Made by a program: the position numbers and the translations under genes
Notes under the pieces: generated by a model
What the model was told of the DNA's origin: nothing
What the model saw: only the letters and a program-made list of their open reading frames with translations
Database searches by the model: none
Origin: Candidatus Saccharimonadota bacterium
Lineage (GTDB): Bacteria > Bacillota_I > Bacilli_A > Mycoplasmatales > Hepatoplasmataceae
Direction of reading: 5' to 3'
DNA length: 32,000 nt
NCBI RefSeq assembly: GCF_000582535.1
Contig: NZ_CP006932.1
Coordinates: 240,001 to 272,000 of the forward strand
Shown: positions 11,992 through 29,831 of the stretch, one piece after another
Layout of the letters: each line of letters starts with the position of its first letter
Numbering within the stretch: the stretch's first letter is position 1

Positions 11992-12014
11992 ATTAAATTT
12001 AATAAAATTATTGT

Positions 12015-12222
12015 TTATGATATTATTATATCTTCTATTTTTGTAACTATATTTTTATCATCATAAATTTCAATTGTATATGTTCCAATAATTAAATCAG
12101 CAAAATTCAATCCAATATTATCACCTTCATTTAAATTAATTTGTTGTATCTCTCACATGATTAAGAATAGCAGTTTCTTTTCCGTTGAAAGCAGGAATAT
12201 TTACATCAAATGTAATAGATTT
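12015..12222 (-). pseudogene. Promoterless, start-less, frameshifted relic of one SprB/Ig-like repeat domain
   Basis: The minus strand reads SITFDVNIPAFNGKETAILNH, then after a frameshift INLNEGDNIGLNFADLIIGTYTIEIYDDKNIVTKIEDIIIS*. This is homologous to the 94-aa units of 24513..27332. A TAA lies directly upstream and there is no start codon. Confidence 0.6.
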
Positions 12223-14065
12223 TTATCCTTTGATATATCAATTTGCAATATCTATATTTTAAATAAATATGGATATATTTTTTTTATTATATTAATTTTG
12301 GATTTTATTAAATATTACAAATTGCTTTATTTTTTCTATTGATATATTTTTTAGTATTCTAGTAAATAATTAAAATAGATATTAAACGATCCTCATATCT
12401 AACATTGATTAATAAAATCACAAAATTTAAATAATTCTTATTATTTGTTTAGTCATAATTAATTACAATATTTAAAATATTAAATGCGAAATTTAAATTA
12501 CTAAATAACCTTTAGATAACCTTTTAAAATAAAATTTATAATATAATTTTTTTAATTGATGTAATAATAATTTCTGCACTTAACGCAGCATCAATTATAT
12601 TAATTGTTTTATCAACATTAAAAGAGAAATAGCAAGCCCCAATTCCAACAAAATCATATCTTGTAGTCCCATCATATACAATATCTTTTGCATACATTAA
12701 TTGAGTATTACCAATATCTGCATAAGTACAATTAATCAATAAGAAATCTGCGTTACTATAATCATCCATATTTATTATTGTACCGCTTACTTGTGCATTT
12801 AAATCTATTGGTGCAGGAATTCCATTTACTCCTCACATTGTTGCTAAAAAATCACTCTCTCTTGCTTTTGTTACTGTACCGTTCAAAGTATCTGTGAAAG
12901 TTAATTCTCCAGAATAAGATACATTACTTCCGTGTTGTTTTTGTAATCAAGTATTAGTTACAATTAAATCACTTATTTCTCTGATAGGATAACCATATTG
13001 TGGTTTTACTGCTGTACCAGCACTTGTGTTAAAGTATCATTTAGAAATTATTAAATCATAATTAGTATAGTCTTCGTTTAACACAAATTTATCACCATAA
13101 CCAAATGCCCCGTTTTCTAAAATTTTAGTAATAGTAATATTATCAATTGCTTTAATTCAATTTAAACCTTTAACTGAATTACTTACACTTTCTCTTGTTG
13201 TGTCAAAAGTATTATCACTTGTTCTTTTTATAGCAACATAACATTCATCTCCTTGTGGATCGTTAGGGTTAAATGAATTTAAACAACCAGTAGTTCATTC
13301 GTTTAAATTAAAATCTGATCCAACAATAAATAAGTTTTGATAACATTGAATATTGTTTTCTGGTATTAAATTTCCCTTTGTAATCATTAATATATGATTA
13401 AAATCTTCTCCATCATTAACTGGAATATCATTACTGTTTGGGGGAATTAAAGAACCATCATCAGGTGTCACAATATCAATTATTTCTTCATCTCCACCAC
13501 CATCTTCAGATGAATCATAATCATTAATTATAAATGATGTATTATCAATCAATTCAGTATCACAATAAACTTCTATATTATAATATCCGGGAGGTAAATC
13601 AGTAAATGTTAATCCTGTATTTATTCCCTCGGATAAAGTAATTGGTTCTGTTCCACTTGCTGGATTTAATACAGCAATTGATGTTCCATTACAATCTGAT
13701 AAATAAACATCAAAGGAAACTGTACCATTTCCATCTTCAGTAGTTGGATCAGTAGGAACAATATTATCAATTATTGCTGATGGGAATGGATCTATTGAAC
13801 AATCTTTACAAGTAGATAAAGAATCAAGACTTGCTTTAATATCACCAATAGCATTATTTATAATATCACCTAAGTTATTTACTGCTGTATTTAAACCATC
13901 AATTTGATCTTGCAAACCATCAGTTAATCCAAGAAGTGTATTATCTCGAACAACTGTATCATTAGTACTTTCTCCATATAATTTTTCATCTGCTTGTGTA
14001 AAATCTCCAAAAGCTTCAGTAGATGTATTTCCCAAAACTGTATAAGTTACATGATCAGTATCAAC
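12197..14065. repeat. Segmental duplication copy A (about 1.87 kb, ~99% identical to 18636..20502)
   Basis: The two copies are offset by a constant 6437 nt, with one 2-nt poly-T length difference near 12270. I found about ten substitutions by eye. Identity drops sharply outside both ends. Confidence 0.85.
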
Positions 14066-14566
14066 CATATTATTATTAATTAAATCATCAATCGCTTCTT
14101 TATTAGTTTCATTTACTTCTTTTTGTGTTTTTTCACCTTCGGAATTATAATTTATTGTATTTATAGATAATATATCAATATTTCCTCCATTGCAGCCATC
14201 AATCATAATTACAATTAAATCAAGGCAATTAATTTATTGATTTGATTTATTTCTTTTTGTGTTGAATCGCCTTATAATATAGAATCCATTATACTAAAAG
14301 AAGGAGTATTTATTTTCCCATTAAGATAATTAATTTTCTTATTCATATTAATAATTCAGAACTAATTTCAGTAATATTTATTTTATTTTTCTTATTGACT
14401 TCTTTCTGCGTTTTATCATTTTTTAAAGTAGAATTAATTGTATTAATTAATAATGTAAAGTTTTTATTGACATATTTTCATTTACTTCTTATTGAAATTC
14501 TCATATTTCTATTGTTGGATTTATAGTTACTATATGTGCAAGATTAACATATCCTACTTGACTTTT
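12536..14566 (-). pseudogene. Decayed, internally deleted fibre-family paralog P1: ruined 5' part, intact 556-codon 3' ORF (12536..14206) with no family promoter or SD; candidate silent cassette
   Basis: 14207..14566 holds recognisable but stop-riddled family sequence, e.g. LAHIVTINPTIEIWEFQ*EVNENMSIKTL against SAHVQTVNPVAEGGGFQQEVNENITQSINSI, and TINSTLKNDKTQKEVNKKNK. The ORF from ATG 14206 continues through TGA 13295-13297 to TAA 12536. It is nearly identical to the 3' half of 18973..22818. The conserved ~150-nt leader seen upstream of the other paralogs is absent. Confidence 0.6.
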
Positions 14567-14632
14567 ATATTTGATTAAGTTTTATTTTCCTCTTTAAAAC
14601 TTAATTTTATTTTATTAATCTATAAAAAATAT

Positions 14633-17600
14633 TTATAATTTTATTCCTCATAATTTCATAGTAAAACTAAAATTTTTGGTATAACTTCCATCAGGATTAA
14701 ATATAAAATAGCTTGAATCTGCTACAGAAGAAATATAATATCTTGTTATTCCATCTGCAATTATATTTTTAGCATAAATAAATAAACCACCTCAATAATT
14801 CTTTGATCTATCTGAAACAAATAATAATGAATAATCAGAAGTTATGAATTTAGTATTTGTTAATTCTTCAAAATTTTCTCAATTCATACCTCAAATCATA
14901 TTAAAAGCAAGTTTAGTATAACCATTATCTGCTTTAATATTAAGAGTAGTTCCACTAATTGTACATCATGATTCAAAAGAAGCATAAGCGAGAACAATTT
15001 CATTGTTATCAATATCTCCTGTTTTTACTGCAATATATTGTATATGTTCATCACTATCACCAAGATTTGCAGTTGATTTAGCAATTATAAAATCATAATT
15101 ATATAAATCTTCTTTTATTGATATACTATTTCCACTTTTAATACTTACTTCATTATCCAATAATTGTGTGATTGGTTGTTTAAGTCCCTTGATAAAATCT
15201 AAACCATCAATAACACCCCCAAGATTTCTTAATGTAAATGTATTATTTGATGTTACTTTTAATAATAAATTACTATCATCACTAGTAACATAAGTTAAAT
15301 AAATATTATATTCTGGACCATTTAATTCTAAATTAGTTCCAATCATCAATGAATTTCCTATTCCTTTTCCATCACTTAATGTTGTATTAGTAAATAATAA
15401 ATTATAGTCGTTTAAATTACCATTTGTTGTTCCGCCTTCTTTATCGGGTGTATCAAAATCTATTAAATCATCAAAACCATCATCTGTAATAATTGGTTCA
15501 GAAATTATAAATGATGTATCATCAATCAATTCAGTATCACAATAAACTTCTATATTATAATATCCGGGAGGTAAATTTGTAAACGTTAATCCTGTATTTA
15601 TTCCCTCGGATAAAGTAATTGGTTCTGTTCCACTTGCTGGATTTAATACAGCAGTTGATGTTCCATTACAATCTGATAAATCAACATCAAAGGAAACTGT
15701 ACCATTTCCATCTTCAGTAGTTGGATCAGTAGGAACAATATTATCAATTATTGCTGATGGGAATGGATCTATTGAACAATCTGTACAAGTAGATAAAGAA
15801 TCAAGACTTGCTTTAATATCACCAATAGCATTATTTATAATATCACCTAAGTTATTTACTGCTGTATTTAAACCATCAATTTGATCTTGCAGACCATCAG
15901 TTAATCCAAGAAGTGTATTATCTCGAACAACTGTATCATTAGTACTTTCTCCATATAATTTTTCATCTGCTTGTGTAAAATCTCCAAAAGCTTCAGTAGA
16001 TGTATTTCCCAAAACTGTATAAGTTACATGATCAGTATCAAGTACATCACTATTAATTAAATCATCAATTGCTTGCGTATTTGCATCAATTGCTTCTTTA
16101 TTAGCTTCATTTACTTCTTGTTGTGTTGTTCCACCTTCAGCAGTTGCATCAACTGTAGCAACATCTGAAGTATTTGGATCACTTAAATTATCAAGCTGAT
16201 CATTAATATCATCAATCGCTTCTTTATTAGCTTCATTTACTTCTTTTTGTGTAGATCCACCTTCAGTACTAGGACTATTAGTATTAATAACAGCGGTATC
16301 ACCTTCTACTGGAACACCATTATTAATAAGATCATCTACTTCATCATTTAAATTATCAATCGCTTCTTTATTAGCTTCATTTACTTCTTTTTGTGTAGAT
16401 CCACCTTCAGCAGCAGGATCTGCAGTGGGAACATCAGAAGTATCTCCATCAATTATATTATCTACTTCATTATTTAAATTATCAATCGCTATTTTATTAT
16501 TTTTATTTACAATTTCTTGTGTTGCTCCACCTTCAGCAGCAGAATTTGAAGTGGGAACATCAGAAGTATCTCCATTACGAATATCATCAACTTCATCATT
16601 TAAATTATCAATTGCTTCTTTATTAGCTTCATTTACTTCTTTTTGTGTAGAACCACCTTCAGTAGTAGGATTATTAGTATCAATAGTAGAAGTATCACCT
16701 GGTGTAACTCCATTATCAATAATATTTTCTATTTCTGTATTTAAAGTATCAACTTCATCATTTAAATTATCAATCGCTTCTTTATTATTTTTATTTACAA
16801 TTTCTTGTGTTGATCCACCTTCAGCACTAGAATCTTTAGTATCAATAGTAGAAGTATCATCTGATGGAACACCATTATTAATAAGATCATCTACTTCATC
16901 ATTTAAAATATTTATTTCTTTATTTAAAGTATCAAATTCATCATTTAAATTATCAATCGCTTCTTTATTATTTTTATTTACAATTTCTTGTGTTGATCCA
17001 CCTTCAGCACTAGAATCTTTAGTATCAATAGTAGAAGTATCATCTGATGGAACACCATTATTAATAAGATCATCTACTTCATCATTTAAAATATTTATTT
17101 CTTTATTTAAAGTATCAAATTCATCATTTAAATTATCAATCGCTTCTTTATTATTTTTATTTACAATTTCTTGTGTTGATCCACCTTCATTTGTGGAATC
17201 AGCAGTATTAATAGTTGAAGTTGTAATATCATCGCAATCGCAACCAGAAGAATCACAACCACATTCCATACAATCAATCTTTTCATTAATATCAGAAATT
17301 TCAGAATTAACTTTAATAATTTCAGAATCTAAAGTAATAATACTTTTTTTATTAGCTTCATTTACTTCTTTTTGATTTGGCCCACCTTCAAAAAAACTAT
17401 CAACAGTAGATACATTTTCTGTATTGGTTTTTAAATCATTATCATCAATCTTAGAACTAATATCATTAATTAAAGTATTTATATTATCAATGTCTTTTTT
17501 ATTAACTTGATTTATTTCTTTTTGATTTATTCCACCTTCTAAAGTAGTATCGACCGCTTTAATAGAATAAGTAGTATTAGCTTCTCCAAAAGATTCCATT

Positions 17601-18202
17601 TTATCATTAATATCAGAAATATCTGAATTTAGTGAATCAAAATTAACTTTATTTTTTACATTAATTTCTTGTTGTGTTGTTCCATTTTCTAAAGAAGAAT
17701 TAGTTGCAATAATTTTTGAAGTATTTATATCAAAATCTAAATTATCAATTTTATCATCAATTATAATAATTGAATCATTTAAATCATCTATGTTTTGTTT
17801 ATTTTTTTCATTTACTTGCTTTTGTGTTGTTCCACCTTCAGAAGTAGAATTAACTGTTTCGATAGAAGAAGTAATAGTTTGTATTAAAGTATTGCCATTA
17901 ACAATATCATTAAATCCATCATTTAAATTATCAATATTTTGTTTATTTTTTTCATTTACTTGTTGTTGTGTTGTTCCACCTTCAGAAGTAGAATTAATAG
18001 TATTAATAGATGATGTAATAGTTTTTACTTTAGTACCACCACTTACAATAGAATTAATACTTTGTGTAATATTTTCATTTACTTCTTGTTGAAATCCTCC
18101 ACCTTCGGTAACAGGATTTACTGTTTGTACATGTGCAGAATCAGTAATTGATGCTGTAACTTTTTTTTCCGCAAAATTACTTTTATTATATTTATTTTCC
18201 AT
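14633..18202 (-). CDS. Fibre-family protein P2 (1189 aa): acidic N-terminus without signal peptide, 14 EGG-TQ-EVN-NK-AID units, Cys cluster, coiled-coil segment, CxxC hinge, one SprB/Ig-like domain, unique C-terminal module
   Basis: Track ORF 14966..18202 continues through TGA 14966-14968 and four more TGA codons. I translated it codon by codon to TAA 14635-14633, ending ...FSFTMKLWGIKL*. The N-terminus is MENKYNKSNFAEKKVTASITDSAHVQTVNPVTEGGG. Confidence 0.85.
16801..17166. repeat. Intragenic tandem duplication, 2 x 183 bp (61-aa unit AEGGSTQEIVNKNNKEAIDNLNDEFDTLNKEINILNDEVDDLINNGVPSDDTSTIDTKDSS)
   Basis: The anchor tttcttgtgttgatccacc occurs at 16801, 16984 and 17167, a period of 183 nt. 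The two full copies look identical by eye. Confidence 0.85.
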
Positions 18203-18360
18203 AATTTAATTTACCCCATATATTATTTTATTTAAATTTAATAATTTTTTACAATAAAATAAAACATTTCTTCTTATTTTTAAATTAACTCTAAAATAGA
18301 TAATTATTTATCATATCTTGATATATAAATAATCTATTATCTTAATTATAATTATATTAA
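18203..18360 (-). promoter_or_regulatory. Conserved upstream leader and promoter block of P2 (-10 at 18351-18356; inverted repeat TATCA-N5-TGATA at 18309-18323)
   Basis: This block aligns with the regions upstream of P3 and P4. Shared elements are CATAATTTAATTTAcC, TAATTATTTATCA..TTGATAT, TTATCTTAATT and ATTATA(A/T)T followed by an A-run. Confidence 0.45.
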
Positions 18361-18424
18361 AAAAATAAAACAATTTTTTTATTTTTTTAATATATACATA
18401 TATAGAAATTAATATTCAATATTT

Positions 18425-18661
18425 TTATTTATTTTTTAATAAAATTACTGGTTCTGATATTATGATATCTTCTCTTTTTGTGATTAAATTTTTATCATCA
18501 TAAATCTCAATTTTATATGGTCCAACCATTAGATTATCAAATACTAATTCAATATTATCCTCTTCATTTAAATCAATTGGTAATTTATTTCCTGCAGGAT
18601 TAAAAACAGCAGTTCCTTTTCCTTTGAAAGCAGAAATATTTACATCAAATGTAATAGATTT
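18425..18661 (-). pseudogene. Start-less relic of one SprB/Ig-like repeat domain (78 codons, open frame)
   Basis: The minus strand reads SITFDVNISAFKGKGTAVFNPAGNKLPIDLNEEDNIELVFDNLMVGPYKIEIYDDKNLITKREDIIISEPVILLKNK*. TAA 18664-18662 lies directly upstream and there is no start codon or SD. It is homologous to 12015..12222 and to the 282-bp units. Confidence 0.6.
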
Positions 18662-20502
18662 TTATCCTTTGATATATCAATTTGCAATATCTATATTTTA
18701 AATAAATATGGATATATTTTTTATTATATTAATTTTGGATTTTATTAAATATTACAAATTGCTTTATTTTTTCTATTGATATATTTTTTAGTATTCTAGT
18801 AAATAATTAAAATAGATATTAAATGATCCTCATATCTAACATTAATTAATAAAATCACAAAATTTAAATAATTCTTATTATTTGTTTAGTCATAATTAAT
18901 TACAATATTTAAAATATTAAATGCGAAATTTAAATTACTAAATAACCTTTAGATAACCTTTTAAAATAAAATTTATAATATAATTTTTTTAATTGATGTA
19001 ATAATAATTTCTGCACTTAACGCAGCATCAATTATATTAATTGTTTTATCAACATTAAAAGAGAAATAGCAAGCCCCAATTCCAACAAAATCATATCTTG
19101 TAGTCCCATCATATACAATATCTTTTGCATACATTAATTGAGTATTACCAATATCTGCATAAGTACAATTAATCAATAAGAAATCTGCGTTACTGTAATC
19201 ATCCATATTTATTATTGTACCGCTTACTTGTGCATTTAAATCTATTGGTGCAGGAATTCCATTTACTCCTCATATTGTTGCTAAAAAATCACTCGCTCTT
19301 GCTTTTGTTACTGTACCGTTCAAAGTATCTGTGAAAGTTAATTCTCCAGAATAAGATACATTACTTCCGTGTTGTTTTTGTAATCAAGTATTAGTTACAA
19401 TTAAATCACTTATTTCTCTGATAGGATAACCATATTGTGGTTTTACTGCTGTACCAGCACTTGTGTTAAAGTATCATTTAGAAATTATTAAATCATAATT
19501 AGTATAGTCTTCGTTTAACACAAATTTATCACCATAACCAAATGCCCCGTTTTCTAAAATTTTAGTAATAGTAATATTATCAATTGCTTTAATTCAATTT
19601 AAACCTTTAACTGAATTACTTACACTTTCTCTTGTTGTGTCAAAAGTATTATCACTTGTTCTTTTTATAGCAACATAACATTCATCTCCTTGTGGATCGT
19701 TAGGGTTAAATGAATTTAAACAACCAGTAGTTCATTCGTTTAAATTAAAATCTGATCCAACAATAAATAAGTTTTGATAACATTGAATATTGTTTTCTGG
19801 TATTAAATTTCCCTTTGTAATCATTAATATATGATTAAAATCTTCTCCATCATTAACTGGAATATCATTACTGTTTGGGGGAATTAAAGAACCATCATCA
19901 GGTGTCACAATATCAATTATTTCTTCATCTCCACCACCATCTTCAGATGAATCATAATCATTAATTATAAATGATGTATTATCAATCAATTCAGTATCAC
20001 AATAAACTTCTATATTATAATATCCGGGAGGTAAATCAGTAAATGTTAATCCTGTATTTATTCCCTCGGATAAAGTAATTGGTTCTGTTCCACTTGCTGG
20101 ATTTAATACAGCAGTTGATGTTCCATTACAATCTGATAAATCAACATCAAAGGAAACTGTACCATTTCCATCTTCAGTAGTTGGATCAGTAGGAACAATA
20201 TTATCAATTATTGCTGATGGGAATGGATCTATTGAACAATCTGTACAAGTAGATAAAGAATCAAGACTTGCTTTAATATCACCAATAGCATTATTTATAA
20301 TATCACCTAAGTTATTTACTGCTGTATTTAAACCATCAATTTGATCTTGCAGACCATCAGTTAATCCAAGAAGTGTATTATCTCGAACAACTGTATCATT
20401 AGTACTTTCTCCATATAATTTTTCATCTGCTTGTGTAAAATCTCCAAAAGCTTCAGTAGATGTATTTCCCAAAACTGTATAAGTTACATGATCAGTATCA
20501 AG
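18636..20502. repeat. Segmental duplication copy B (partner of 12197..14065)
   Basis: See copy A. It covers the relic's 5' edge, about 310 nt of non-coding DNA and the 3' ~1.5 kb of P3. Confidence 0.85.
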
Positions 20503-22818
20503 TACATCACTATTAATTAAATCATCAATTGCTTGCGTATTTGCATCAATTGCTTCTTTATTAGCTTCATTTACTTCTTGTTGTGTTGTTCCACCTTCAG
20601 CAGTTGCATCAACTGTAGCAACATCTGAAGTATTTGGATCACTTAAATTATCAAGCTGATCATTAATATCATCAATCGCTTCTTTATTAGCTTCATTTAC
20701 TTCTTTTTGTGTAGATCCACCTTCAGTACTAGGACTATTAGTATTAATAACAGCGGTATCACCTTCTACTGGAACACCATTATTAATAAGATCATCTACT
20801 TCATCATTTAAATTATCAATCGCTTCTTTATTAGCTTCATTTACTTCTTTTTGTGTAGATCCACCTTCAGTACTAGGACTATTAGTATTAATAACAGCGG
20901 TATCACCTTCTACTGGAACACCATTATTAATAAGATCATCTACTTCATCATTTAAATTATCAATTGCTTCTTTATTAGCTTCATTTACTTCTTTTTGTGT
21001 AGATCCACCTTCAGTAGCAGGATCTGCAGTGGGAACATCAGAAGTATCTCCATTACGAATATCATCAACTTCATCATTTAAATTATCAATCGCTATTTTA
21101 TTATTTTTATTTACAATTTCTTGTGTTGCTCCACCTTCAGCAGCAGAATTTGAAGTGGGAACATCAGAAGTATCTCCATTATGAATATCATCAATTTCAT
21201 CATTTAAATTATCAATTGCTTCTTTATTAGCTTCATTTACTTCTTTTTGTGTAGATCCACCTTCAGTAGTAGGATTATTAGTATCAATAGTAGAAGTATC
21301 ACCTGGTGTAACTCCATTATCAATAATATTTTCTATTTCTGTATTTAAAGTATCAACTTCATCATTTAAATTATCAATTGCTTCTTTATTATTTTTATTT
21401 ACAATTTCTTGTGTTGATCCACCTTCAGCAGTAGGACTATTAGTATCAATAGTAGAAGTATCACCTAGTGTAACTCCATTATCAATAATATTTTCTATTT
21501 CTGTATTTAAAGTATCAACTTCATCATTTAAATTATCAATCGCTTCTTTATTATTTTTATTTACAATTTCTTGTGTTGATCCACCTTCAGCACTAGAATC
21601 TTTAGTATCAATAGTAGAAGTATCACCTGATGGAACACCATTATTAATAAGATCATCTACTTCATCATTTAAAATATTTATTTCTGTATTTAAAGTATCA
21701 AATTCATCATTTAAAGTATCAATCGCTTCTTTATTATTTTTATTTACAATTTCTTGTGTTGATCCACCTTCATTTGTAGAATCAGCAGTATTAATAGTTG
21801 CAGTTGTAATATCATCGCAATCGCAACCAGAAGAGTCACAACCACATTCCATACAATCAATCTTTTCATTAATATCAGAAATTTCAGAATTAACTTTAAT
21901 AATTTCTGAATCTAAGGTAATAATACTTTTTTTATTAGCTTCATTTACTTCTTTTTGATTTGGCCCACCTTCAAAAAAACTATCAACAGTAGATACATTT
22001 TCTGTATTGGTTTTTAAATCATTATCATCAATCTTAGAACTAATATCATTAATTAAAGTATTTATATTATCGATATCTTTTTTATTAACTTGATTTATTT
22101 CTTTTTGATTTATTCCACCTTCTAAAGTAGTATCGACCGCTTTAATAGAATAAGTAGTATTAGCTTCACCAAAAGATTCCATTTTATCATTAATATCAGA
22201 AATATCTGAATTTAGTGAATCAAAATTAACTTTATTTTTTACATTAATTTCTTGTTGTGTTGATCCATTCTCTAAAGAAGAATTATTTGCACTAACTTTT
22301 GAAGTATTTATATCAAAATCTAAATTATCAATTTTATCATCAATTATAATAATTGAATCATTTAAATCATCTATGTTTTGTTTATTTTTTTCATTTACTT
22401 GCTTTTGTGTTGTTCCGCCTTCAGAAGTAGAATTAACTGTTTCAATAGAAGAAGTAATAGTTTGTATTAAAGTATTACCATTAATAATATCACTAAATTC
22501 ATCATTTAAATTATCAATGTTTTGTTTATTTTTTTCATTTACTTGTTGTTGTGTTGTTCCACCTTCAGAAGTAGAATTGATAGTATTAATAGATGATGTA
22601 ATAGTTTTTATTTTAGTACTACCACTTACAATAGAATTAATACTTTGTGTAATATTTTCATTTACTTCTTGTTGAAATCCTCCACCTTCAGCAACAGGAT
22701 TTACTGTTTGTACATGAGCAGAATCAGTAATTGATGCTGTAACTTTTTCTTCTTGTTCTACAAAATCACTATTATCAGATTCTTTATCTTGAAAATTTAA
22801 TTCATTTTCCTTTATCAT
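18973..22818 (-). CDS. Fibre-family protein P3 (1281 aa): same layout as P2 with 15 EGG units and a different C-terminal module
   Basis: Track ORFs 19732..22818 and 18973..19206 are in frame (528 nt between codon tops). I translated the intervening stretch with TGA=Trp and found it open (WTTGCLNSFNPNDPQGDECYVAIKR...TMWGVNGIPAPIDLNAQVSGTIINMDDYSNADF...). The N-terminus is MIKENELNFQDKESDNSDFVEQEEKVTASITDSAHV. Confidence 0.85.
20701..20988. repeat. Intragenic tandem duplication, 2 x 144 bp (48-aa unit TEGGSTQKEVNEANKEAIDNLNDEVDDLINNGVPVEGDTAVINTNSPS)
   Basis: The anchor ttctttttgtgtagatccacc occurs at 20701 and 20845. P2 carries this unit only once. Confidence 0.8.
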
Positions 22819-22970
22819 AATTTAATTTACCCTATATTATTTATTTACATTTTTTTAAAAACAAAAAAAGCACTTCTGCTATTTCTAATTTAATTCTAAA
22901 TATAGGTAATTATTTATCAAATTTTGATATTCTAATAACCCATTATCTTAATTTTAATTATAATAAAAAA
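22819..22970 (-). promoter_or_regulatory. Conserved upstream leader and promoter block of P3 (-10 at 22957-22962; palindrome TATCAAATTTTGATA at 22915-22929)
   Basis: This block aligns with the P2 and P4 upstream regions. The TATAAT lies about 139 nt upstream of the ATG. Confidence 0.45.
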
Positions 22971-23133
22971 ATAAAATAAAAATATATATTTTTATTTTAT
23001 TAATTATTTTTTTGATAATAGTATTTTTTAGAATAACTAATATTTTTAAATTTTCAAAAGTAAGATTATTAATAGCGAGAAATTAAATTAATTTAATTTT
23101 AGAATTTTGTTAAATTATGAAACACAAATGAAA

Positions 23134-23167
23134 TAATTTTTGATATTGATATCAATATCAAAAATTA
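23134..23167. repeat. Perfect 34-nt palindrome (17-bp arms, no spacer)
   Basis: I checked taatttttgatattgat|atcaatatcaaaaatta base by base. It lies in the 815-nt non-coding spacer between P4 and P3. Confidence 0.8.
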
Positions 23168-23223
23168 AAAGATTATTTATAGTTTATCAATTATTTTTGT
23201 AAAATCAAAAATTAAAAAAAATA

Positions 23224-23258
23224 ATATCAATAAAAATTTTATTAATTTTTATTGATAT
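23224..23258. repeat. Perfect 15-bp inverted repeat with a 5-nt loop
   Basis: The arms are atatcaataaaaatt (23224-23238) and aatttttattgatat (23244-23258), separated by ttatt. It shares the ATATCAA/TTGATAT core with the 34-nt palindrome. Confidence 0.75.
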
Positions 23259-23633
23259 CTTAAAATTTATCATTTTAATTTAAAAGTTACTATAATTTTT
23301 GTATTTAAATTATTAAATTAAAGGAATCTGAATTAAAAAAAAGATTATATAAATTTGGTAATACAACATTTATGTAATTTATTAAATATTTATATTATTT
23401 TTTTTGATAATAATACTAAATAATTGAATTATTCAGTAAAAAATAATATATTTTGATAGTTTGAAAAACTACTTTTATTATTCAAAAATTATTAAAATAC
23501 CAATGCAAAATTTCAATTATTTAATAATCTTTTGATTTATTTTTTACTTAAATTATAAATATTATCTTCTTCTTTATTAAAAAAAAGCAAATATGTGATC
23601 TAATTGTAATAAATATCAATTTTCATTCTCTTT

Positions 23634-26600
23634 TTAAATTATAATTCCTTTCACTCCTAATAGTTCAAGATGTCCTAAACCGCCACCACTAGTTCAAGTT
23701 AAAACATTTCCAGTAATTGTAAAGTGTTCTTGCTGGTAATTAGAATAAGAATGATTTGTTATACCATCAGCAACAATATCACTAACTTTAATAACTCAAT
23801 CACCAACAGCAAAATTGCTTCCTTCAATTTTAAATAATAATAAATCATAAGAAGTGTAATCATTTAAAGTGAAAGTATCAGAAGTTTGAGATATCACAAG
23901 ATTATCTATTGATGTAAAGTTAAAACCATAAATCATTGTTATGTAACTACCTTCACCTATTCCTGTTGAAACTTCTTGGTTTGAAAATCTTCAACCATTA
24001 AGAGCAGTATCAGCAGCATTTTTGGCAACATAAATATAGTTTTGCTCTGGATCTGTTGTTTGTTCTCATAAAGTATAACTAAAATTATTTCTTGTATTAT
24101 CTCATCATTTTTGAACAATCATATTAAATTGTGTAATGTCTTCTAATCAAGTAAAATTATCATTATTTTCATAAATACCTTCTGTAATTAAAGGTGTTAG
24201 CCCAACATTAATTCCTTTTAAATAATATATTCCAGTAAAATCACCTATAATATCTAAATTAAAATTAGTAGGATCAGTAAATATTAATTTTTGAATCTCA
24301 TTATTACTTGTAATTCCGCTTTGATTTGAATCATTAATATCTATTTCTTTACCAATAAACAAACCATTTCCCACATAATTAGGATGTTGATTTTTACTCA
24401 AAATAATATCATAATTTAAATAACTATCTAATATTTCTCCACTTGTTTTACTATTAGCATCATCATCCTCAGGTGTTAATGGAATAAAATCATTACCACC
24501 AATATTAGGTTCAGAAACAACTATATCTGCCTCTGAACTAATTAATTCCTCTCCATCATAAATTTCAATTACATATGTTCCAGCAATTAAATTATCAAAG
24601 ATCAATCCTGTATTTGCTCCATCAACTAAGCTAATTGGACTTGTTCCAGTAGCAGGATTTAAAACTGCAGTTGCTAAATCAACAAAGTTAGCAATTGTAA
24701 CATCAAATCCAATTGAACCATCACTACCACCATTTATAGTTACATCAGTTGGAATAACATTTGAAACTGTTGCCTCTGGATCTGGGAGAGGTTCATTAAT
24801 CACTATATCTGCCTCTGAACTAATTAAAGTTTCTCCATCATAAATTTCAATTACATATGTTCCAGCAATTAAATTATCAAAACTCAAATCAGCATTTACT
24901 CCATCAACTAAGTTAATTGGACTTGTTCCAGTAGCAGGATTTAAAATAGCAGTTGCTAAATCAACAAAGTTAGCAATTGTAACATCAAATCCAATTGAAC
25001 CATCACTACCACCATTTATAGTTACATCAGTTGGAATAACATTTGAAACTGTTGCCTCTGGATCTGGGAGAGGTTCATTAATCACTATATCTGCCTCTGA
25101 ACTAATTAAAGTTTCTCCATCATAAATTTCAATTGTATATGTTCCAGCAATTAAATTATCAAAACTTAAATCAGCATTTGCTCCATCAACTAAGCTAATT
25201 GGACTTGTTCCAGTAGCAGGATTTAAAACTGCAGTTGCTAAATCAACAAAGTTAGCAATTGTAACATCAAATCCAATTGAACCATCACTACCACCATTTA
25301 TAGTTACATCAGTTGGAATAACATTTGAAACTGTTGCCTCTGGATCTGGGAGAGGTTCAGAAACAACAATATCTGCCTCTGAACTAATTAAAGTTTCTCC
25401 ATCATAAATTTCAATTGTATATGTTCCAGCAATTAAATTATCAAAACTTAAATCAGCATTTGCTCCATCAACTAAGCTAATTGGACTTGTTCCAGTAGCA
25501 GGATTTAAAATAGCAGTTGCTAAATCAACAAAGTTAGCAATTGTAACATCAAATCCAATTGAACCATCACTACCACCATTTATAGTTACATCAGTTGGAA
25601 TAACATTTGAAACTGTTGCCTCTGGATCTGGGAGAGGTTCAGAAACAACAATATCTGCCTCTGAACTAATTAAAGTTTCTCCATCATAAATTTCAATTGT
25701 ATATGTTCCAGCAATTAAATTATCAAAACTTAAATCAGCATTTGCTCCATCAACTAAGCTAATTGGACTTGTTCCAGTAGCAGGATTTAAAACTGCAGTT
25801 GCTAAATCAACAAAGTTAGCAATTGTAACATCAAATCCAATTGAACCATCACTACCACCATTTACAGTTACATCAGTTGGAATAACATTTGAAACTGTTG
25901 CCTCTGGATCTGGAAGAGGTTCATTAATCACTATATCTGCCTCTGAACTAATTAAAGTTTCTCCATCATAAATTTCAATTGTATATGTTCCAGCAATTAA
26001 ATTATCAAAACTTAAATCAGCATTTGCTCCATCAACTAAGCTAATTGGACTTGTTCCAGTAGCAGGATTTAAAATAGCAGTTGCTAAATCAACAAAGTTA
26101 GCAATTGTAACATCAAATCCAATTGAACCATCACTACCACCATTTACAGTTACATCAGTTGGAATAACATTTGAAACTGTTGCCTCTGGATCTGGAAGAG
26201 GTTCATTAATCACTATATCTGCCTCTGAACTAATTAAAGTTTCTCCATCATAAATTTCAATTGTATATGTTCCAGCAATTAAATTATCAAAACTTAAATC
26301 AGCATTTGCTCCATCAACTAAGCTAATTGGACTTGTTCCAGTAGCAGGATTTAAAATAGCAGTTGCTAAATCAACAAAGTTAGCAATTGTAACATCAAAT
26401 CCAATTGAACCATCACTACCACCATTTACAGTTACATCAATTGGAACTACATTTGAAACTGTTGCCTCTGGATCTGGGAGAGGTTCATTAATCACTATAT
26501 CTGCCTCTGAACTAATTAAAGTTTCTCCATCATAAATTTCAATTACATATGTTCCAGCAATTAAATTATCAAAACTCAAATCAGCATTTACTCCATCAAC

Positions 26601-29441
26601 TAAGTTAATTGGACTTGTTCCAGTAGCAGGATTTAAAATAGCAGTTGCTAAATCAACAAAGTTAGCAATTGTAACATCAAATCCAATTGAACCATCACTA
26701 CCACCATTTATAGTTACATCAGTTGGAATAACATTTGAAACTGTTGCCTCTGGATCTGGGAGAGGTTCATTAATCACTATATCTGCCTCTGAACTAATTA
26801 AAGTTTCTCCATCATAAATTTCAATTACATATGTTCCAGCAATTAAATTATCAAAACTCAAATCAGCATTTACTCCATCAACTAAGTTAATTGGACTTGT
26901 TCCAGCAGCAGGATTTAAAATAGCAGTTGCTGAATCAACAAAGTTAGCAATTGTAACATCAAATCCAATTGAACCATCACTACCACCATTTACAGTTACA
27001 TCAATTGGAATAACATTTGAAACTGTTGCCTCTGGATCTGGGAGAGGTTCAGAAACAACAATATCTGCCTCTGAACTAATTAAAGTTTCTCCATCATAAA
27101 TTTCAATTGTATATGTTCCAGCAATTAAATTATCAAAACTCAAACCAGCATTTTCTCCATCAACTAAAGTAATTTCATCTATTATTGCTGTAGGATTTAA
27201 TCCTATTACATCTGAATTTGAATTTAAAACTGCTTTTGCTGTATTCATAAAGTTAGCAATTGTAACATCAAATACAATTGAACCATCATTACCACCATTT
27301 ACAGTTACATCAGTTGTAATAACATTTGAAAATATTACTTCTTGATCTGGAGTTAAAGGGCATCCAGTACAAATAGATATTGAATTAAGGCTTAATAAAA
27401 TATTAGAAACAATTTTATTTAAATCATCTATTGCTTGGGTATTAGTACCAATTGCTTGTGTATTAGCATTAATCGCAATTTTATTAGCTTCATTTACTTC
27501 TTGTTGTGTTGCCCCACCTTCAGTATTAGAATCAACTGTAGCAATATCTGAAGTAACTGGATTATTTAAATCATCAATTGCTTGCGTATTTGCATCAATT
27601 GCTTGCGTATTTGCATCAATTGCAATTTTATTAGCTCATTTACTTCTTGTATGTGTTGCTCCCCCTTCAGTATTAGAATCAACTGTAGTAATATCTGAAG
27701 TAACTGGATCACTTAAATCATCAATTGCTTGCGTATTTGCATCAATTGCTTGCGTATTTGCATCAATTGCAATTTTATTAGTTTCATTTACTTCTTGTTG
27801 TGTTGCTCCCCCTTCAGTATTAGAATCAACTGTAGTAATATCTGAAGTAACTGGATCACTTAAATCATCAATTGCTTGCGTATTTGCATCAATTGCTTGC
27901 GTATTTGCATCAATTGCAATTTTATTAGTTTCATTTACTTCTTGTTGTGTTGCTCCCCCTTCAGTATTAGAATCAACTGTAGTAATATCTGAAGTAACTG
28001 GATCACTTAAATTATCTATTGCTTGGGTATTAGCATCAATTGCTTGAGTATTAGCATCAATTGCTTTTTTATTAGCTTCATTTACTTCTTTTTGTGTAGA
28101 ACCACCTTCAGTAATTGAATTAGTAGTAGTAATAGTTGAAGTATTTCCTCCTGGCACACCATTATTTATAATATCACTAATTTCATCACTTAAATTATCA
28201 ATTGCTACTTTATTACTTTTATTTACAATTTCTTGTGTTGTTCCACCTTCAGTCGTAGAATTTACAGTATTAATAGTTGAAGTTGTAATATCATCGCAAT
28301 CGCAACCAGAAGAATCACAACCACATTCCATACAATCAATCTTTTCATTAATATCAGAAATTTCAGAATTAACTTTAATAATTTCAGAATCTAAAGTAAT
28401 AATACTTTTTTTATTAGCTTCATTTACTTCTTTTTGATTTGGCCCACCTTCAAAAAAACTATCAACAGTAGATACATTTCCTGTATTGGTTTTTAAATCA
28501 TTATCATCAATCTTAGAACTAATGTCACTAATTAAGGTATTTATACTATCAATATCTTTTTTATTAACTTGATTTATTTCTTTTTGATTTATTCCGCCTT
28601 CTAAAGTAGTATCGACCGCTTTAATAGAATAAGTGGTATTAGCTTCTCCAAAAGATTCCATTTTATCATTAATATCAGAAATATCTGAATTTAGTGAATC
28701 AAAATTAACTTTATTTTTTATATTAATATCTTTTTGCGTTGATCCACCTTCTAAAGAAGAACTAGTTGCATTAACTTTTGAAGTATTTATATCAAAATCT
28801 AAATTATCAATTTTATCATCAATTACAACAATTGAATTATTTAAATTATCAATGTTTTGTTTATTTTTTTCATTTACTTGCTTTTGTGTTGTTCCGCCTT
28901 CAGAAGTAGAATTAATTGTTTCAATAGAAGAAGTAACAGTTTGTATTAAAGTATTACCATTAACAATATCATTAAATTCATCATTTAAATTATCAATGTT
29001 TTGTTTATTTTTTTCATTTACTTGCTTTTGTGTTGTTCCGCCTTCAGAAGTAGAATTAATTGTTTCAATAGAAGAAGTAACAGTTTGTATTAAAGTATTA
29101 CCATTAACAATATTATTAAATTCATCATTTAAATTATCAATCGCTTCTTTATTTTTTTGATTTACTTGTTGTTGTGTTGTTCCACCTTCAGAAGCAGAGT
29201 TAATAGTATTAATATATGATGTAATAGTTTTTATTTCAGTATTACCACTTAAAATAGAATTAATACTTTGTGTAATATTTTCGTTTACTTCTTGTTGAAA
29301 TCCCCCACCTTCAGCAACAGGATTTACTGTTTGTACATGAGCAGAGTCAGTAATTGATGCTGTAATTTTTTCTTTTTCTTCTGAAAAATTACTTTTATCA
29401 GATTCATTTTCTTGAAAATTTAATTCATTTCCCTTTTCCAT
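23634..29441 (-). CDS. Fibre-family protein P4 (1935 aa): 13 EGG units, Cys cluster, CxxC hinge, 10 tandem SprB/Ig-like domains, third type of C-terminal module
   Basis: Track ORFs 27636..29441 and 24147..27248 are in the same frame (2193 nt apart). I translated 27635..27249 and 24146..23634 codon by codon and both are open with TGA=Trp, ending at TAA 23636-23634 (...LTWTSGGGLGHLELLGVKGIII*). The N-terminus is MEKGNELNFQENESDKSNFSEEKEKITASITDSAHV. Confidence 0.8.
24513..27332. repeat. Coding tandem array, 10 x 282 bp (94-aa SprB/Ig-like domain units); nine near-identical copies and one diverged
   Basis: The anchor gcctctgaac recurs at 24811, 25093 and onward with an exact 282-nt period. The unit is EPLPDPEATVSNVIPTDVT(V/I)NGGSDGSIGFDVTIANFVDLATA(I/V)LNPATGTSPI(N/S)LVDG(V/A)NADLSFDNLIAGTY(V/T)IEIYDGETLISSEADIV(IN/VS). 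Confidence 0.9.
27480..28075. repeat. Coding tandem array, about 4 x 147 bp (49-aa unit with an internal 21-bp/7-aa ANTQAID doublet)
   Basis: The anchor cccccttcag occurs at 27661, 27808 and 27955, with a variant at 27514. The unit is KIAIDANTQAIDANTQAIDDLSDPVTSDITTVDSNTEGGATQQEVNETN. Confidence 0.85.
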
Positions 29442-29610
29442 AATTTAATTTATCCTATATATTATTTTTATTTAAATTTGATTAAAATTTTTTTATATTA
29501 AAACAAAGCATTTCTGCTATTTCTAATTTAACTCTAAATATGGGTAATTATTTATCAAATTTTGATATTTTAAAAACCCCTTATCTTAATTTTCATTATA
29601 ATAAAAAATA
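29442..29610 (-). promoter_or_regulatory. Conserved upstream leader and promoter block of P4 (-10 at 29595-29600; palindrome TATCAAATTTTGATA at 29553-29567)
   Basis: This block aligns with the P2 and P3 upstream regions. The TATAAT lies about 154 nt upstream of the ATG. Confidence 0.45.
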
Positions 29611-29831
29611 AAATAAAAATATCTATTTTTATTTTTTTATAATTTGTAAATTTAATTCAAATATATTTTTATTTAAAAGATCATATTAATTTAAATTATT
29701 TTTATTTTTTGATATTTAACAAAAATTAAAATATTTTTTCTTATTATTTTATAAATAAAATAAAATTTTAAATTTATTAAATATAATGTTAGAAAAATAA
29801 TTTATAGATATTTTATTTTTTAAATATTTTA

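What the first reader, a model, noticed from the sequence alone, without database searches (positions are those of the whole stretch)
12536..29441. Array of giant, signal-peptide-less fibre-like proteins with a shared head and rod but swapped tips (candidate undescribed system)
Four co-oriented minus-strand paralogs make up the array: P4 (1935 aa), P3 (1281 aa), P2 (1189 aa) and decayed P1. They share an acidic, non-hydrophobic N-terminus (M..NELNFQ..ESD.S.F..E.K-TASITDSAHVQTVNPVAEGGGFQQEVNEN). They also share 13-15 copies of a 45-61 aa unit built on (S/T)xEGGxTQxEVNxxNKxAIDxLN, a CMECGCDSSGCDCDD cluster, a CxxC hinge, and 1 or 10 Ig-like domains. Each then ends in a different ~290-330 aa C-terminal module. 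I find no signal peptide, lipobox or TM segment anywhere in them. That is odd for proteins that look like extracellular fibres in a wall-less TGA=Trp organism. I cannot assign the EGG-TQ unit to any named family. The layout is a conserved attachment end, a repetitive rod, a variable distal tip and a silent spare tip. This is how phage tail fibres/receptor-binding proteins and variable adhesins are organised. A cytoskeletal (terminal-organelle-like) role is the alternative. No phage, secretion or recombinase genes are visible in this window.
Basis: partly seen in the sequence, partly recalled or inferred. Interest (0 to 1): 0.85.

Follow-up and report, generated by a model that had tools for sequence, protein, structure and literature searches.

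The report
Phage-fibre-like giant proteins in Hepatoplasma
A gut symbiont of woodlice keeps a chromosomal row of giant fibre proteins with no export signal, and their rod, spacer and tip parts are also found in the tail fibres and capsid extensions of previously unrecognised phages, which suggests the bacterium's presumed "adhesins" share ancestry with viral fibres.

Summary
The array is real: three intact paralogs (1935, 1281 and 1189 aa) and one decayed paralog, readable only with TGA=Trp, most likely from Ca. Hepatoplasma crinochetorum. Two details are wrong. There are three tip types, not four, because P1 is a decaying copy of P3's 3' end. The three types are also distant homologs rather than unrelated modules. 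The cluster was already reported in 2024 as "large repetitive ORFs with Ig-like folds, possibly adhesins".

New here: an exhaustive search finds only 18 relatives. Several lie on phage contigs carrying a protein-primed DNA polymerase, a terminase plus major head protein, or a Sak recombinase. There the same rod units, stalk, Ig domains and all three tip types form tail fibres, or capsid-gene extensions made by -1 frameshifting. A tip model (pLDDT 73) matches only phage receptor-binding and tail-fibre proteins. The rod has a coiled-coil register with Asn-rich core positions, as in trimeric fibres.

No other phage gene is in the window, and the conserved N-terminal head occurs only in chromosomal copies. 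Best reading: co-opted phage-type trimeric adhesive fibres released without Sec (function inferred). Main rival: anti-phage decoys.

The parts
23634..29441 (-). P4, 1935 aa: head, 13 rod units, Cys cluster, CxxC, 10 Ig-like domains, P4-type tip
   Evidence: Table-4 ORF; units; 10 YxIE(I/V)Y motifs 94 aa apart; 282-nt tandem array
18973..22818 (-). P3, 1281 aa: head, 15 rod units, Cys cluster, stalk, CxxC, 1 Ig, P3-type tip
14633..18202 (-). P2, 1189 aa: head, 14 rod units, Cys cluster, stalk, CxxC, 1 Ig, P2-type tip
12536..14233 (-). P1 remnant: one degenerate unit, stalk, CxxC, Ig and a P3-type tip. Its first ATG is at 14204-14206, and the same 556-aa ORF is called in another assembly (P0005)
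   Evidence: 97.7% nt identity to the P3 3' part; 3 synonymous and 13 non-synonymous differences; P0005
14234..14632 (-). Decayed, stop-ridden remnants of P1's head and rod units
   Evidence: Read directly: 'TVNPTIEIWEFQ*EVNEN', 'DKTQKEVNKKNK', 'GDSTQKEINQINK'
29274..29441 (-). P4 head: variable acidic N-terminus (MEKxNELNFQ...) followed by the invariant first unit TDSAHVQTVNPVAEGGGFQQEVNENI. Equivalent regions are 22651-22818 in P3 and 18068-18202 in P2
   Evidence: Invariant columns across P4, P3, P2 and H. scabrum P0001; also present in HPPSJP_2240; among the 18 relatives, only the chromosomal P0001 matches this region
27399..29351 (-). P4 rod: segmented coiled coil of EGG-TQ units. Rods of P3 and P2 are at 20476-22728 and 16016-18145
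   Evidence: Unit profile; heptad register with position a 62% hydrophobic plus 28% Asn and position d 51% hydrophobic plus 26% Asn
28290..28334 (-). Cys cluster CMECGCDSSGCDCDD in P4 (also 21811-21855 in P3 and 17228-17272 in P2), at the end of a long helical segment
   Evidence: expanded to CLDCGCGCDDGCGCDDGCDDGCG in H. scabrum
27360..27371 (-). CxxC at the rod/Ig junction in P4 (also 20236-20247 in P3, 15776-15787 in P2 and 13799-13810 in P1)
   Evidence: equivalent CC or CxxC in the phage fibres P0003 and P0013 and in chromosomal P0002
20248..20493 (-). Stalk segment of P3 (DHVTYTVLGN...LYGESTNDTVVRDNTLL...). Also 15788-16033 in P2 and 13811-14056 in P1
   Evidence: 48-49% identical to the fibres P0013 and P0015 on phage-type contigs
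24513..27359 (-). P4 Ig-like array (10 domains)
   Evidence: 45-53% identical to Ig domains on phage capsid-type proteins P0014, P0016, P0019 and P0021
23637..24512 (-). P4-type tip (292 aa)
   Evidence: P0003, on phage-like contig L004, is 55% identical to P4 over a 363-aa alignment spanning the last Ig domain and this tip; the whole of P0007 is 68% identical to P4's C-terminal 605 aa; the P0004 tip is 87% identical
18976..19962 (-). P3-type tip (329 aa). The P1 copy is at 12539-13525
   Evidence: P0006, on phage contig L010, is 60% identical to P3 over 407 aa covering the Ig domain and this tip; AlphaFold model pLDDT 72.6, pTM 0.78; Foldseek matches phage receptor-binding and tail-fibre proteins
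14636..15499 (-). P2-type tip (288 aa)
   Evidence: 30% identical over 293 aa, to the very C-terminus, to P0013, the fibre on DNA-polymerase phage contig L009
29442..29660 (-). Conserved promoter/leader upstream of P4 (also 22819-23037 for P3 and 18203-18421 for P2), with a TATAAT box and the palindrome TATCAAAATTTGATA
   Evidence: 84% mean column identity among the three

Best explanation
These genes encode a chromosomal family of phage-type fibre proteins. Shown: each protein has a short head found only in chromosomal copies, then a rod of 13-15 units. Each unit has a short beta/loop stretch ending in EGG and a helix of 23-49 residues with a heptad register. The rod carries Cys knots, followed by one or ten Ig-like spacer domains and a C-terminal all-beta tip. 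The rod unit, stalk, Ig domain and all three tip types are homologous to parts of tail fibres and frameshift-made capsid extensions of phages with the same genetic code and base composition. The tip model has the fold of phage receptor-binding distal domains. Inferred: the proteins assemble as parallel homotrimers, as phage fibres and Asn-core coiled coils do. Like phage fibres they fold in the cytoplasm without Sec export. Hepatoplasma has co-opted them, adding its own promoter and head, as long adhesive fibres that bind glycans on the isopod hepatopancreas surface or on neighbouring cells. They would reach the outside through lysis or permeabilisation of some cells and then re-bind, as shown for the phage-fibre adhesins PblA/PblB of Streptococcus mitis, or by an unknown route that uses the conserved head.
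For: IDENTITY. An exhaustive HMMER search found only 18 relatives among 1.84 billion representatives. P0013 (rod-type units, P2/P3 stalk, P2-type tip) aligns to P2 at 32% over 332 aa and 30% over 293 aa. It lies on a 19-kb co-directional contig with DNA_pol_B_2, methylases, a Walker ATPase and a second fibre gene. P0006 (three Ig domains plus a P3-type tip, 60% over 407 aa) lies on a 23.8-kb, 36-gene co-directional contig with SSAP_Sak. P0003 (rod units, Ig, P4-type tip, 55% over 363 aa) lies in an 11.4-kb block of 13 packed ORFs with a second fibre, a TM-rich small ORF and a Walker ATPase. The Ig family also sits on P0014, which matches a PHROG major head protein and shares its contig with a Terminase_6N gene. 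The tip model (pLDDT 72.6, pTM 0.78) matches with confidence only phage K gp144, phi812 baseplate chains and tail-fibre, short-tail-fibre and tail-collar proteins. gp144 is a GlcNAc/teichoic-acid-binding receptor protein (PMC12860735). TRIMER. The heptad register has Ile/Leu plus 26-28% Asn at core positions a and d. Polar core residues that point inward are a feature of trimeric and tetrameric coiled coils, trimeric autotransporter stalks and the P22 tail needle (PMC13580157). CO-OPTION. No other phage gene is in the window or in the strain-Ps loci, and the genome was reported free of prophage (PMC3942034). Each gene has its own conserved leader. The head occurs only in chromosomal copies and is near-invariant between species. 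The array is syntenic next to the same RCC1 gene in strain Ps and has counterparts in H. scabrum. ADHESION. Two phages display the same Ig and tip modules on capsid-type proteins through -1 frameshifting. Ig-bearing phage proteins mediate epithelial adhesion (PMC13370021). The organism lives attached to the hepatopancreas epithelium (PMC4536667). For the PblB precedent see PMC4508584.
Against: No localisation, expression or binding data exist. There is no export signal, holin or lysin at the locus, while the neighbouring RCC1 surface proteins do carry classical signals. The trimer is inferred from sequence only, because the structure tool models monomers. The Foldseek matches have high probability but low TM-scores (0.25-0.52) and come from a model built on 12 sequences. 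Ligand specificity is unknown. H. scabrum paralogs have no tip. The short paralog P0002 in strain Ps, whose tip is about 90% identical to a phage fibre tip (79% over 370 aa including the Ig domain; 84.5% at DNA level), sits next to defence genes, which fits an anti-phage role at least as well. The phage identity of L004 and the capsid identity of the frameshifted genes rest on layout and weak similarity.
Confidence: 0.5

Rival explanations
1. Anti-phage decoy fibres. The chromosomal proteins stay in the cytoplasm and share Ig and tip parts with the fibres of infecting phages. They co-trimerise with phage fibre subunits through the homologous C-terminal parts. Because they lack the phage's virion-attachment N-terminus, the mixed trimers poison virion assembly. 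Alternatively, fibres released from lysed cells mask the phage receptor on sister cells. An array with several tip types would cover several phage types.
For: No export signal. Every tip type has a phage counterpart. P0002 in strain Ps has a tip about 90% identical to phage fibre P0003 (79% over 370 aa including the Ig domain; 84.5% nt over 1081 nt, ending exactly at both stop codons). It lies directly beside a PDC-S37/Hhe-like helicase (E = 1e-116 and 3e-64) and an AriA/PtuA-like ATPase. Phage fibres carry a different N-terminal motif, TDNEYIVxYNINNIxYLY, that is absent from chromosomal copies.
Against: H. scabrum paralogs of up to 2107 aa have no tip. Thirteen to 40 rod units and up to 10 Ig domains are far more than a decoy needs. 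Window tips are only 30-68% identical to the phage tips sampled so far. The window array is flanked by RCC1 and SDR genes, not defence genes. Defence islands are also general hotspots for acquired DNA. No known defence system works this way.
Confidence: 0.18
2. Leftover or selfish phage DNA. Fibre genes were deposited in the chromosome by past phage recombination and persist without a cellular function, perhaps as a reservoir with which incoming phages exchange tips.
For: Only fibre modules are shared with phages. P1 is decaying. Decayed Ig remnants follow P3 and P1, and a tip remnant follows P0002. There is recent host-phage exchange.
Against: Three ORFs of 1189-1935 aa remain intact in a genome of about 0.6 Mb (contig lengths), where the roughly 17-kb array is a sizeable share. 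Each has a conserved leader. The chromosome-specific head is near-invariant across species. The array is syntenic in strain Ps and has counterparts in H. scabrum, and recent repeat expansions are kept in frame.
Confidence: 0.12
3. Cytoskeletal proteins of the stalk that this 'stalk-forming' mollicute makes, comparable to the signal-less coiled-coil proteins of the Mycoplasma pneumoniae terminal organelle.
For: No export signal; long coiled-coil rods; the organism forms stalks (PMC4536667).
Against: Every module has a homolog on the outside of virions. The tip has a receptor-binding fold. Ig arrays with near-identical repeats and variable tips are typical of exposed binding proteins. There is no similarity to known cytoskeletal families.
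Confidence: 0.07
4. Ordinary Sec-exported adhesins whose signal peptide was missed because the start codon was misplaced or the sequence has an error.
For: Ig arrays and variable tips are typical of adhesins; this was the literature's suggestion (PMC10928387).
Against: A stop codon lies one codon upstream of each ATG. The hydrophilic N-terminus is conserved in seven paralogs or orthologs from three genomes. No hydrophobic segment exists anywhere in the proteins.
Confidence: 0.03

Closest known systems
Giant repetitive ORF clusters of Hepatoplasmataceae (Kawato et al. 2024, PMC10928387)
   Same: [quoted passage not shown]
   Different: That paper modelled only the Ig units. In the sections read it does not describe the EGG-TQ coiled-coil unit, the head, the Cys knots, the tips, the missing export signal or any phage relationship.
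Phage tail fibres and receptor-binding proteins, e.g. phage K gp144 / phi812 RBPs (PDB 5m9f, 9euf) and T7 gp17
   Same: Fibrous shaft with a distal C-terminal all-beta binding domain. The tip model matches them with Foldseek probability 0.99-1.00. True sequence homologs of the window proteins are fibre genes on phage contigs.
   Different: The window genes sit in no phage module, have their own head and leader, and are several times longer. There is no detectable sequence similarity to gp144, and TM-scores are low (0.25-0.38).
PblA/PblB of Streptococcus mitis phage SM1
   Same: A phage tail-fibre homolog that doubles as a bacterial adhesin. It is released when cells are permeabilised and then binds to other viable bacteria (PMC4508584).
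   Different: PblB is encoded in an inducible prophage and is needed for tail morphogenesis. Here no prophage, holin or lysin is nearby, and there is no sequence relationship.
Trimeric autotransporter adhesin stalks (YadA/BadA type)
   Same: Segmented coiled-coil rods with many Asn residues in core positions, interrupted by short non-helical connectors.
   Different: No signal peptide and no C-terminal beta-barrel anchor; the organism has no outer membrane; no Pfam or PDB sequence match.
Ig-like decoration domains of phage structural proteins, often added by programmed frameshifting (T4 Hoc type; Listeria phages A118/A500)
   Same: The same Ig family is appended to capsid-type proteins, in two phages through -1 slippery sites placed immediately before the stop codon (PMC5009743).
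   Different: In the window the Ig domains are in-frame spacers within a chromosomal fibre, and the phage extensions here also carry a full receptor-binding-type tip.

Membership tests
Phage tail fibre / receptor-binding protein | Distal C-terminal domain with the fold of known phage receptor-binding domains | tested here: met
   AlphaFold model of the P3-type tip, pLDDT 72.6 and pTM 0.78. The only confident PDB hits are phage K gp144 and phi812 baseplate chains. BFVD hits are tail-fibre, short-tail-fibre and tail-collar proteins, best E = 2.6e-7 at TM 0.52.
Phage tail fibre / receptor-binding protein | Sequence homologs encoded as fibre genes in phage genomes | tested here: met
   P0013 on the DNA_pol_B_2 contig L009, P0006 on the Sak contig L010, and P0003 on phage-like L004.
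Phage tail fibre / receptor-binding protein | Gene lies in a phage or prophage structural module and has an N-terminal virion-attachment domain | tested here: not met
   No other phage gene in the window. The head occurs only in chromosomal copies. The phage fibres' N-terminal motif is absent.
Phage tail fibre / receptor-binding protein | Parallel homotrimeric assembly | tested here: inconclusive
   A heptad register with Asn-rich a and d positions favours a trimer, but only monomer prediction was available.
Trimeric autotransporter adhesin | N-terminal signal peptide and C-terminal 12-stranded beta-barrel anchor in an outer membrane | tested here: not met
   No hydrophobic N-terminus; no YadA-type anchor or any TAA domain in Pfam; the host is a mollicute and so has no outer membrane (established knowledge).
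Sec-dependent mollicute surface protein or lipoprotein | Signal peptide, lipobox Cys or TM anchor | tested here: not met
   Maximum KD19 of 1.48 against 4.26 in the RCC1 neighbour; the first Cys lies beyond residue 300.
Prophage or tailocin locus | Adjacent capsid, portal, terminase, sheath, tube, integrase or lysis genes | tested here: not met
   Neighbours are RCC1-repeat, SDR and ASCH genes. tblastn of 56 phage-contig ORFs finds only fibre parts. The genome was reported free of prophage.
PblA/PblB-type lysis-released phage-fibre adhesin | Release by phage-driven permeabilisation, re-binding to cells, and adhesion to host ligands | not testable with these tools
   This needs localisation and binding experiments. 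Only the phage-fibre ancestry is shown here.
Ig-like (E-set) domain | Beta-sandwich fold of about 94 aa | tested here: inconclusive
   Pfam gives only summed sub-threshold hits to fn3_3, Y_Y_Y and DUF7862. The fold was predicted by ColabFold in PMC10928387. The database lists faint PF28532 (DUF8428) hits.

The most novel reading that the evidence does not exclude
The array is a new kind of anti-phage defence. The host encodes cytoplasmic decoy fibres that share Ig and tip parts with the fibres of its phages. These co-trimerise with phage fibre subunits and act as dominant-negative poisons of virion assembly, or they mask receptors after cell lysis. The several tip types in the array would track the tip repertoire of the local phage population.
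Probability: 0.15. Interest if true: 0.9.

Novelty: new variant of a known kind. Interest (0 to 1): 0.6.

Why it matters
Hepatoplasma is uncultured, and how it holds on to the isopod gut epithelium is unknown. These giant ORFs are the main adhesin candidates in the literature. If they are phage-fibre kin without export signals, the question changes. Either a reduced symbiont has domesticated viral fibres and delivers them by a non-Sec route, or the genes serve the conflict with its phages. The work also brings to light what appear to be the first phage genomes linked to Hepatoplasmataceae. They include small protein-primed-polymerase types and have no match in INPHARED, IMG/VR or PHROGs. They give concrete reagents: tips to test for glycan or cell binding, and two predicted frameshift sites to test.

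Tried and rejected
- Pfam, PHROGs and PDB sequence searches of the whole proteins, the tips and a 38-row rod-unit profile gave nothing significant. The best unit hit was a non-significant 'GKTQQEINDSQKQKL' stretch in an Acinetobacter phage tailspike (E = 0.3).
- The first tip model, built on 5 sequences, was too weak (pLDDT 51) and its fold search was meaningless. A 12-sequence alignment fixed this.
- IMG/VR scans with the head, tip and capsid-like queries found nothing.
- tblastn against INPHARED with the L004 ATPase and the capsid-like P0021 found nothing.
- PHROGs and Pfam on the L004 and L010 ORFs found nothing. The ATPases of L004 and L009 are not detectably similar. L004's phage identity therefore rests on layout, fibre homology and a weak match between the 349-aa and 350-aa genes (E = 2e-4).
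- P0021 has only one homolog, so no capsid model was attempted.
- My recollection that P0015 and P0011 end in a Pfam 'tail collar' domain was not supported, although BFVD lists a tail-collar fibre among the tip matches.
- The window's ASCH-like ORF is not meaningfully similar to the ASCH gene on phage contig L007.
- The promoter scan is uninformative at 24% GC: 178 sites against 154 expected. Rfam found nothing.
- An upstream start that might hide a signal peptide is excluded by in-frame stops.

Full report
SOURCE AND CODE. The window is 24% G+C and gives long ORFs only with TGA read as Trp. All 23 Trp codons in the four genes are TGA. The closest database proteins are from Candidatus Hepatoplasma. 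One hit's NCBI name carries '263634:269441 Reverse', a 5808-nt span equal to P4 with its stop codon. I infer from this that the window is bases 240001-272000 of the H. crinochetorum Av genome. The window's own proteins were not returned by the protein database.

THE OBSERVATION. Four co-oriented minus-strand genes are present: P4 (1935 aa), P3 (1281 aa), P2 (1189 aa) and a truncated P1.
- They share a hydrophilic N-terminus and have 13, 15 and 14 copies of a unit with consensus T-S-x-(I/V)-x-T-x-(N/D)-(S/P)-x-x-E-G-G-x-T-Q-x-E-V-N-x-x-N-K-x-A-I-D-x-L-N, with a period of 41-67 aa.
- They also share the CMECGCDSSGCDCDD cluster, a CxxC, ten (P4) or one Ig-like domain, and a tip of 288-329 aa.
- No 19-residue window exceeds a Kyte-Doolittle mean of 1.48, against 4.26 for the membrane anchor of the neighbouring RCC1 protein. 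The proteins carry net charges of -149 to -247.

First, P1's DNA is 97.7% identical to the last 1.6 kb of P3, so the array has three tip types and the 'spare' is a copy of P3's tip. The spacer upstream of P1 holds stop-ridden remnants of a head and rod units. P1 differs from P3 by 3 synonymous and 13 non-synonymous codons. Second, the three tip types align collinearly at 21-25% identity, so they are diverged versions of one module.

WHAT WAS ALREADY KNOWN. Kawato et al. [quoted passage not shown] They report little similarity outside the family and Ig-like folds in ColabFold models, and they suggest a role in adhesion. The first genome paper reported no phage or other mobile-element genes (PMC3942034). 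The organism is an extracellular, stalk-forming symbiont on the hepatopancreas epithelium (PMC4536667).

RELATIVES IN OTHER HEPATOPLASMA GENOMES.
- In strain Ps the ortholog of P4 sits next to the same RCC1 gene and runs off a contig end.
- In Ca. H. scabrum the paralogs (740 aa and 2107 aa, the latter with about 40 units and an expanded Cys cluster) have the same head, rod, CxxC and Ig array, but they stop after the Ig domains with no tip.
- The first unit, TDSAHVQT(V/I)NPVxEGGGFQQEVNENI, is almost invariant between species, whereas the overall N-terminal identity is 53-54%.

THE PHAGE CONNECTION. An exhaustive HMMER search with P2 residues 1-1078 found 18 proteins among 1.84 billion representatives. 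Their genomic contexts are as follows.
- P0013 has rod-type units in a variant form ('ESFSGNATTQQEVNMEVVNELNELQEEIDNI'), the P2/P3 stalk segment and a P2-type tip. It aligns to P2 at 32% over 332 aa and at 30% over 293 aa, up to the last residue. It lies on a 19-kb contig with all genes on one strand. That contig carries a protein-primed type-B DNA polymerase (PF03175), two methylases, a Walker-A/B ATPase, a capsid-like gene, a pair of genes of about 350 and 190 aa, and a second fibre gene.
- P0006 has three Ig domains and a P3-type tip (60% identity over 407 aa). It lies on a 23.8-kb, 36-gene one-strand contig with a Sak single-strand-annealing protein and the same pair of roughly 360-aa and 190-aa genes followed by a fibre.
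- P0003 has rod units, one Ig domain and a P4-type tip (55% over 363 aa). It lies in an 11.4-kb block of 13 tightly packed ORFs. Among them are a second fibre-like gene that shares P0003's N-terminal motif, a small TM-rich ORF and a Walker ATPase.
- P0014 pairs a domain matching a PHROG major head protein (E = 2.6e-5) with two Ig domains of this family. A Terminase_6N gene lies on the same contig.
- These contigs have 24-28% G+C and need TGA=Trp.
- They match nothing in INPHARED, IMG/VR or PHROGs, so they appear to be an unsampled phage group.

EXCHANGE BETWEEN HOST AND PHAGE. The chromosomal 729-aa paralog P0002 of strain Ps is 84.5% identical at DNA level to the phage fibre P0003 over 1081 nt, and the similarity ends exactly at both stop codons. 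In contrast, of 56 ORFs from four phage contigs, only the fibre, Ig and tip parts have any counterpart in the window or in the strain-Ps loci. The array is therefore not a prophage.

FRAMESHIFTED CAPSID EXTENSIONS. In two of the phage contigs the ORF carrying the Ig array and tip starts in the middle of an Ig domain. The preceding structural gene ends in the first part of that same domain. At both junctions a canonical -1 slippery heptamer lies immediately before the stop codon: G_GGT_TTT TAG in L005 and A_AAA_AAG TAG in L010. In each case the -1 frame restores the Ig domain. This fits the known habit of phages of adding Ig-like extensions to structural proteins by frameshifting (PMC5009743). 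That the upstream genes encode capsid proteins is inferred from their position after small coiled-coil ORFs and from the architecture of P0014 and P0021. No profile confirms it.

STRUCTURE.
- A first tip model built on five sequences was poor.
- A 12-sequence alignment covering all three tip types gave a model of the P3-type tip, whose sequence is identical to the window's, with pLDDT 72.6 and pTM 0.78. The fold is all-beta.
- Its only confident PDB matches are the two C-terminal domains of phage K gp144 and two baseplate chains of phage phi812 (probability 0.99-1.00, E = 3e-4 to 9e-3). The T7 gp17 tip follows more weakly.
- In the viral structure library the confident matches are tail-fibre, short-tail-fibre and tail-collar-fibre proteins, with a best E of 2.6e-7 at TM 0.52.
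- gp144 binds GlcNAc on wall teichoic acid (PMC12860735), and the phi812 receptor-binding proteins are trimers (PMC13433997).
- For the rod, anchoring the register on the conserved Ile gives position a as 62% hydrophobic plus 28% Asn and position d as 51% hydrophobic plus 26% Asn, while positions b, e and f are 10-14% hydrophobic.
- Asn-rich cores whose side chains point inward are described for trimeric and tetrameric coiled coils, trimeric autotransporter stalks and the P22 tail needle (PMC13580157).
- From my own knowledge, Cys pairs at the ends of extracellular trimeric or pentameric coiled coils (matrilin, thrombospondin/COMP) form interchain disulfide rings. The CxxC here sits in that position. 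This is a lead, not a test.

HOW IT MOST LIKELY WORKS. Shown: the window proteins are built from the same parts as the virion fibres of these phages, and they have a receptor-binding-type tip. Inferred: they form parallel trimers in the cytoplasm, need no Sec signal for the same reason phage fibres need none, and have been taken over by the bacterium. Four observations support the takeover.
- Each gene has its own leader, 84% conserved among the three.
- The head occurs only in chromosomal copies.
- The array is syntenic in strain Ps and has counterparts in H. scabrum.
- The long ORFs remain intact in a genome of about 0.6 Mb.

I favour an adhesive role at the host epithelium or between cells, for three reasons. 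Phages display the same Ig and tip modules on capsid-type proteins, where they cannot drive DNA injection. Ig-bearing phage proteins mediate epithelial adhesion (PMC13370021). The tip-less H. scabrum proteins still end in Ig arrays. Delivery could follow the PblA/PblB precedent, in which fibres are released from permeabilised cells and bind to intact ones (PMC4508584). It could instead use the conserved head in an unknown way.

RIVALS.
- The main rival is an anti-phage decoy. It is favoured by the missing export signal and by P0002, whose tip is about 90% identical to a phage fibre tip and which sits beside a PDC-S37/Hhe-like helicase and an AriA/PtuA-like ATPase. It is weakened by the tip-less paralogs, by the extravagant length of the proteins and by the lack of defence genes next to the window array.
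- Inert phage remnants, a cytoskeletal role and a missed signal peptide are less likely, for the reasons given under each rival.

VERDICT. The phage-fibre reading is supported by homology and by fold. The claim of an undescribed system is only partly right. The thing is a new variant of a known kind, namely phage-fibre-derived bacterial fibres, and its cellular function is unresolved.

Noticed in passing
L005 5560-5640; L010 9930-10003: Two phage contigs have canonical -1 slippery heptamers (G_GGT_TTT and A_AAA_AAG) immediately before the stop codon of a capsid-like gene. The -1 frame completes a split Ig domain and continues into three Ig domains and a tip. This looks like programmed frameshifting that makes a long capsid-fibre fusion.
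   Followed up: partly
L004, L005, L006, L009, L010 (Logan contigs): These look like a previously unsampled group of small phages using TGA=Trp at 24-28% G+C. Hallmarks are a protein-primed DNA polymerase or a Sak recombinase, depending on the contig. They have no match in INPHARED, IMG/VR or PHROGs and are probably the first phages linked to Hepatoplasmataceae.
   Followed up: partly
window 29442-29660, 22819-23037, 18203-18421: A conserved leader of about 200 nt precedes each intact paralog. It has a TATAAT box, a perfect 15-nt palindrome TATCAAAATTTGATA (degenerate before P2) and a shared ribosome-binding region. It may be an operator or a 5'UTR element.
   Followed up: partly
window 27600-27670 (P4 aa 592-610): One rod unit reads 'EGGATHTRSKWANK' instead of 'EGGATQQEVNETNK'. 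This is a local +1/-1 double frameshift, tolerated only because the resulting TGA is read as Trp.
   Followed up: no
window 18432-18662 and 11995-12225: Decayed Ig-domain remnants ('...GPYKIEIYDDKNLITKREDIIISEP') lie downstream of both P3 and P1, inside a duplicated flank of about 550 nt. This shows the P3 to P1 duplication extended beyond the gene.
   Followed up: partly
window 22819-23633 (P4-P3 spacer): A long perfect palindrome, TTTTTGATATTGATATCAATATCAAAAA, lies in the spacer. Its function is unknown.
   Followed up: no
window 3-1823, 2676-5687, 5887-7278, 29801-31999: Four RCC1-repeat beta-propeller proteins flank the array. Where their ends are in the window they have signal peptides, and two have a C-terminal poly-Ile TM anchor. 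Two of them share long, highly similar C-terminal regions. The same gene is the array's neighbour in strain Ps.
   Followed up: partly
window 7600-11986 and 8793-9179: There are four tandem short-chain dehydrogenase paralogs, with a small ASCH-like ORF on the opposite strand among them. An ASCH gene also occurs on phage contig L007, but the two are not meaningfully similar.
   Followed up: partly
L001 2735-12190 (strain Ps chromosome): The short paralog P0002 lies beside a 1351-aa helicase (PADLOC PDC-S37 1e-116, Hhe 3e-64), a 584-aa AriA/PtuA-like ATPase and a pentapeptide-repeat protein, which together look like a defence island. A 50-aa remnant of a P3-type tip follows P0002 at 12360-12509.
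   Followed up: partly
P0011 (4617 aa): This giant relative combines 23 EGG-type units with a second repeat, 'DDSxxNPTxGINPWKTQIDxN...IIDGT'. It ends in a motif shared with the fibre P0015 ('LPIxxIxISxxSPxYGxW'). Its context was not examined.
   Followed up: no
The large protein database did not return the window's own P2, P3 or P4, although close relatives and a P1-like ORF from another assembly (P0005) were found.
   Followed up: no
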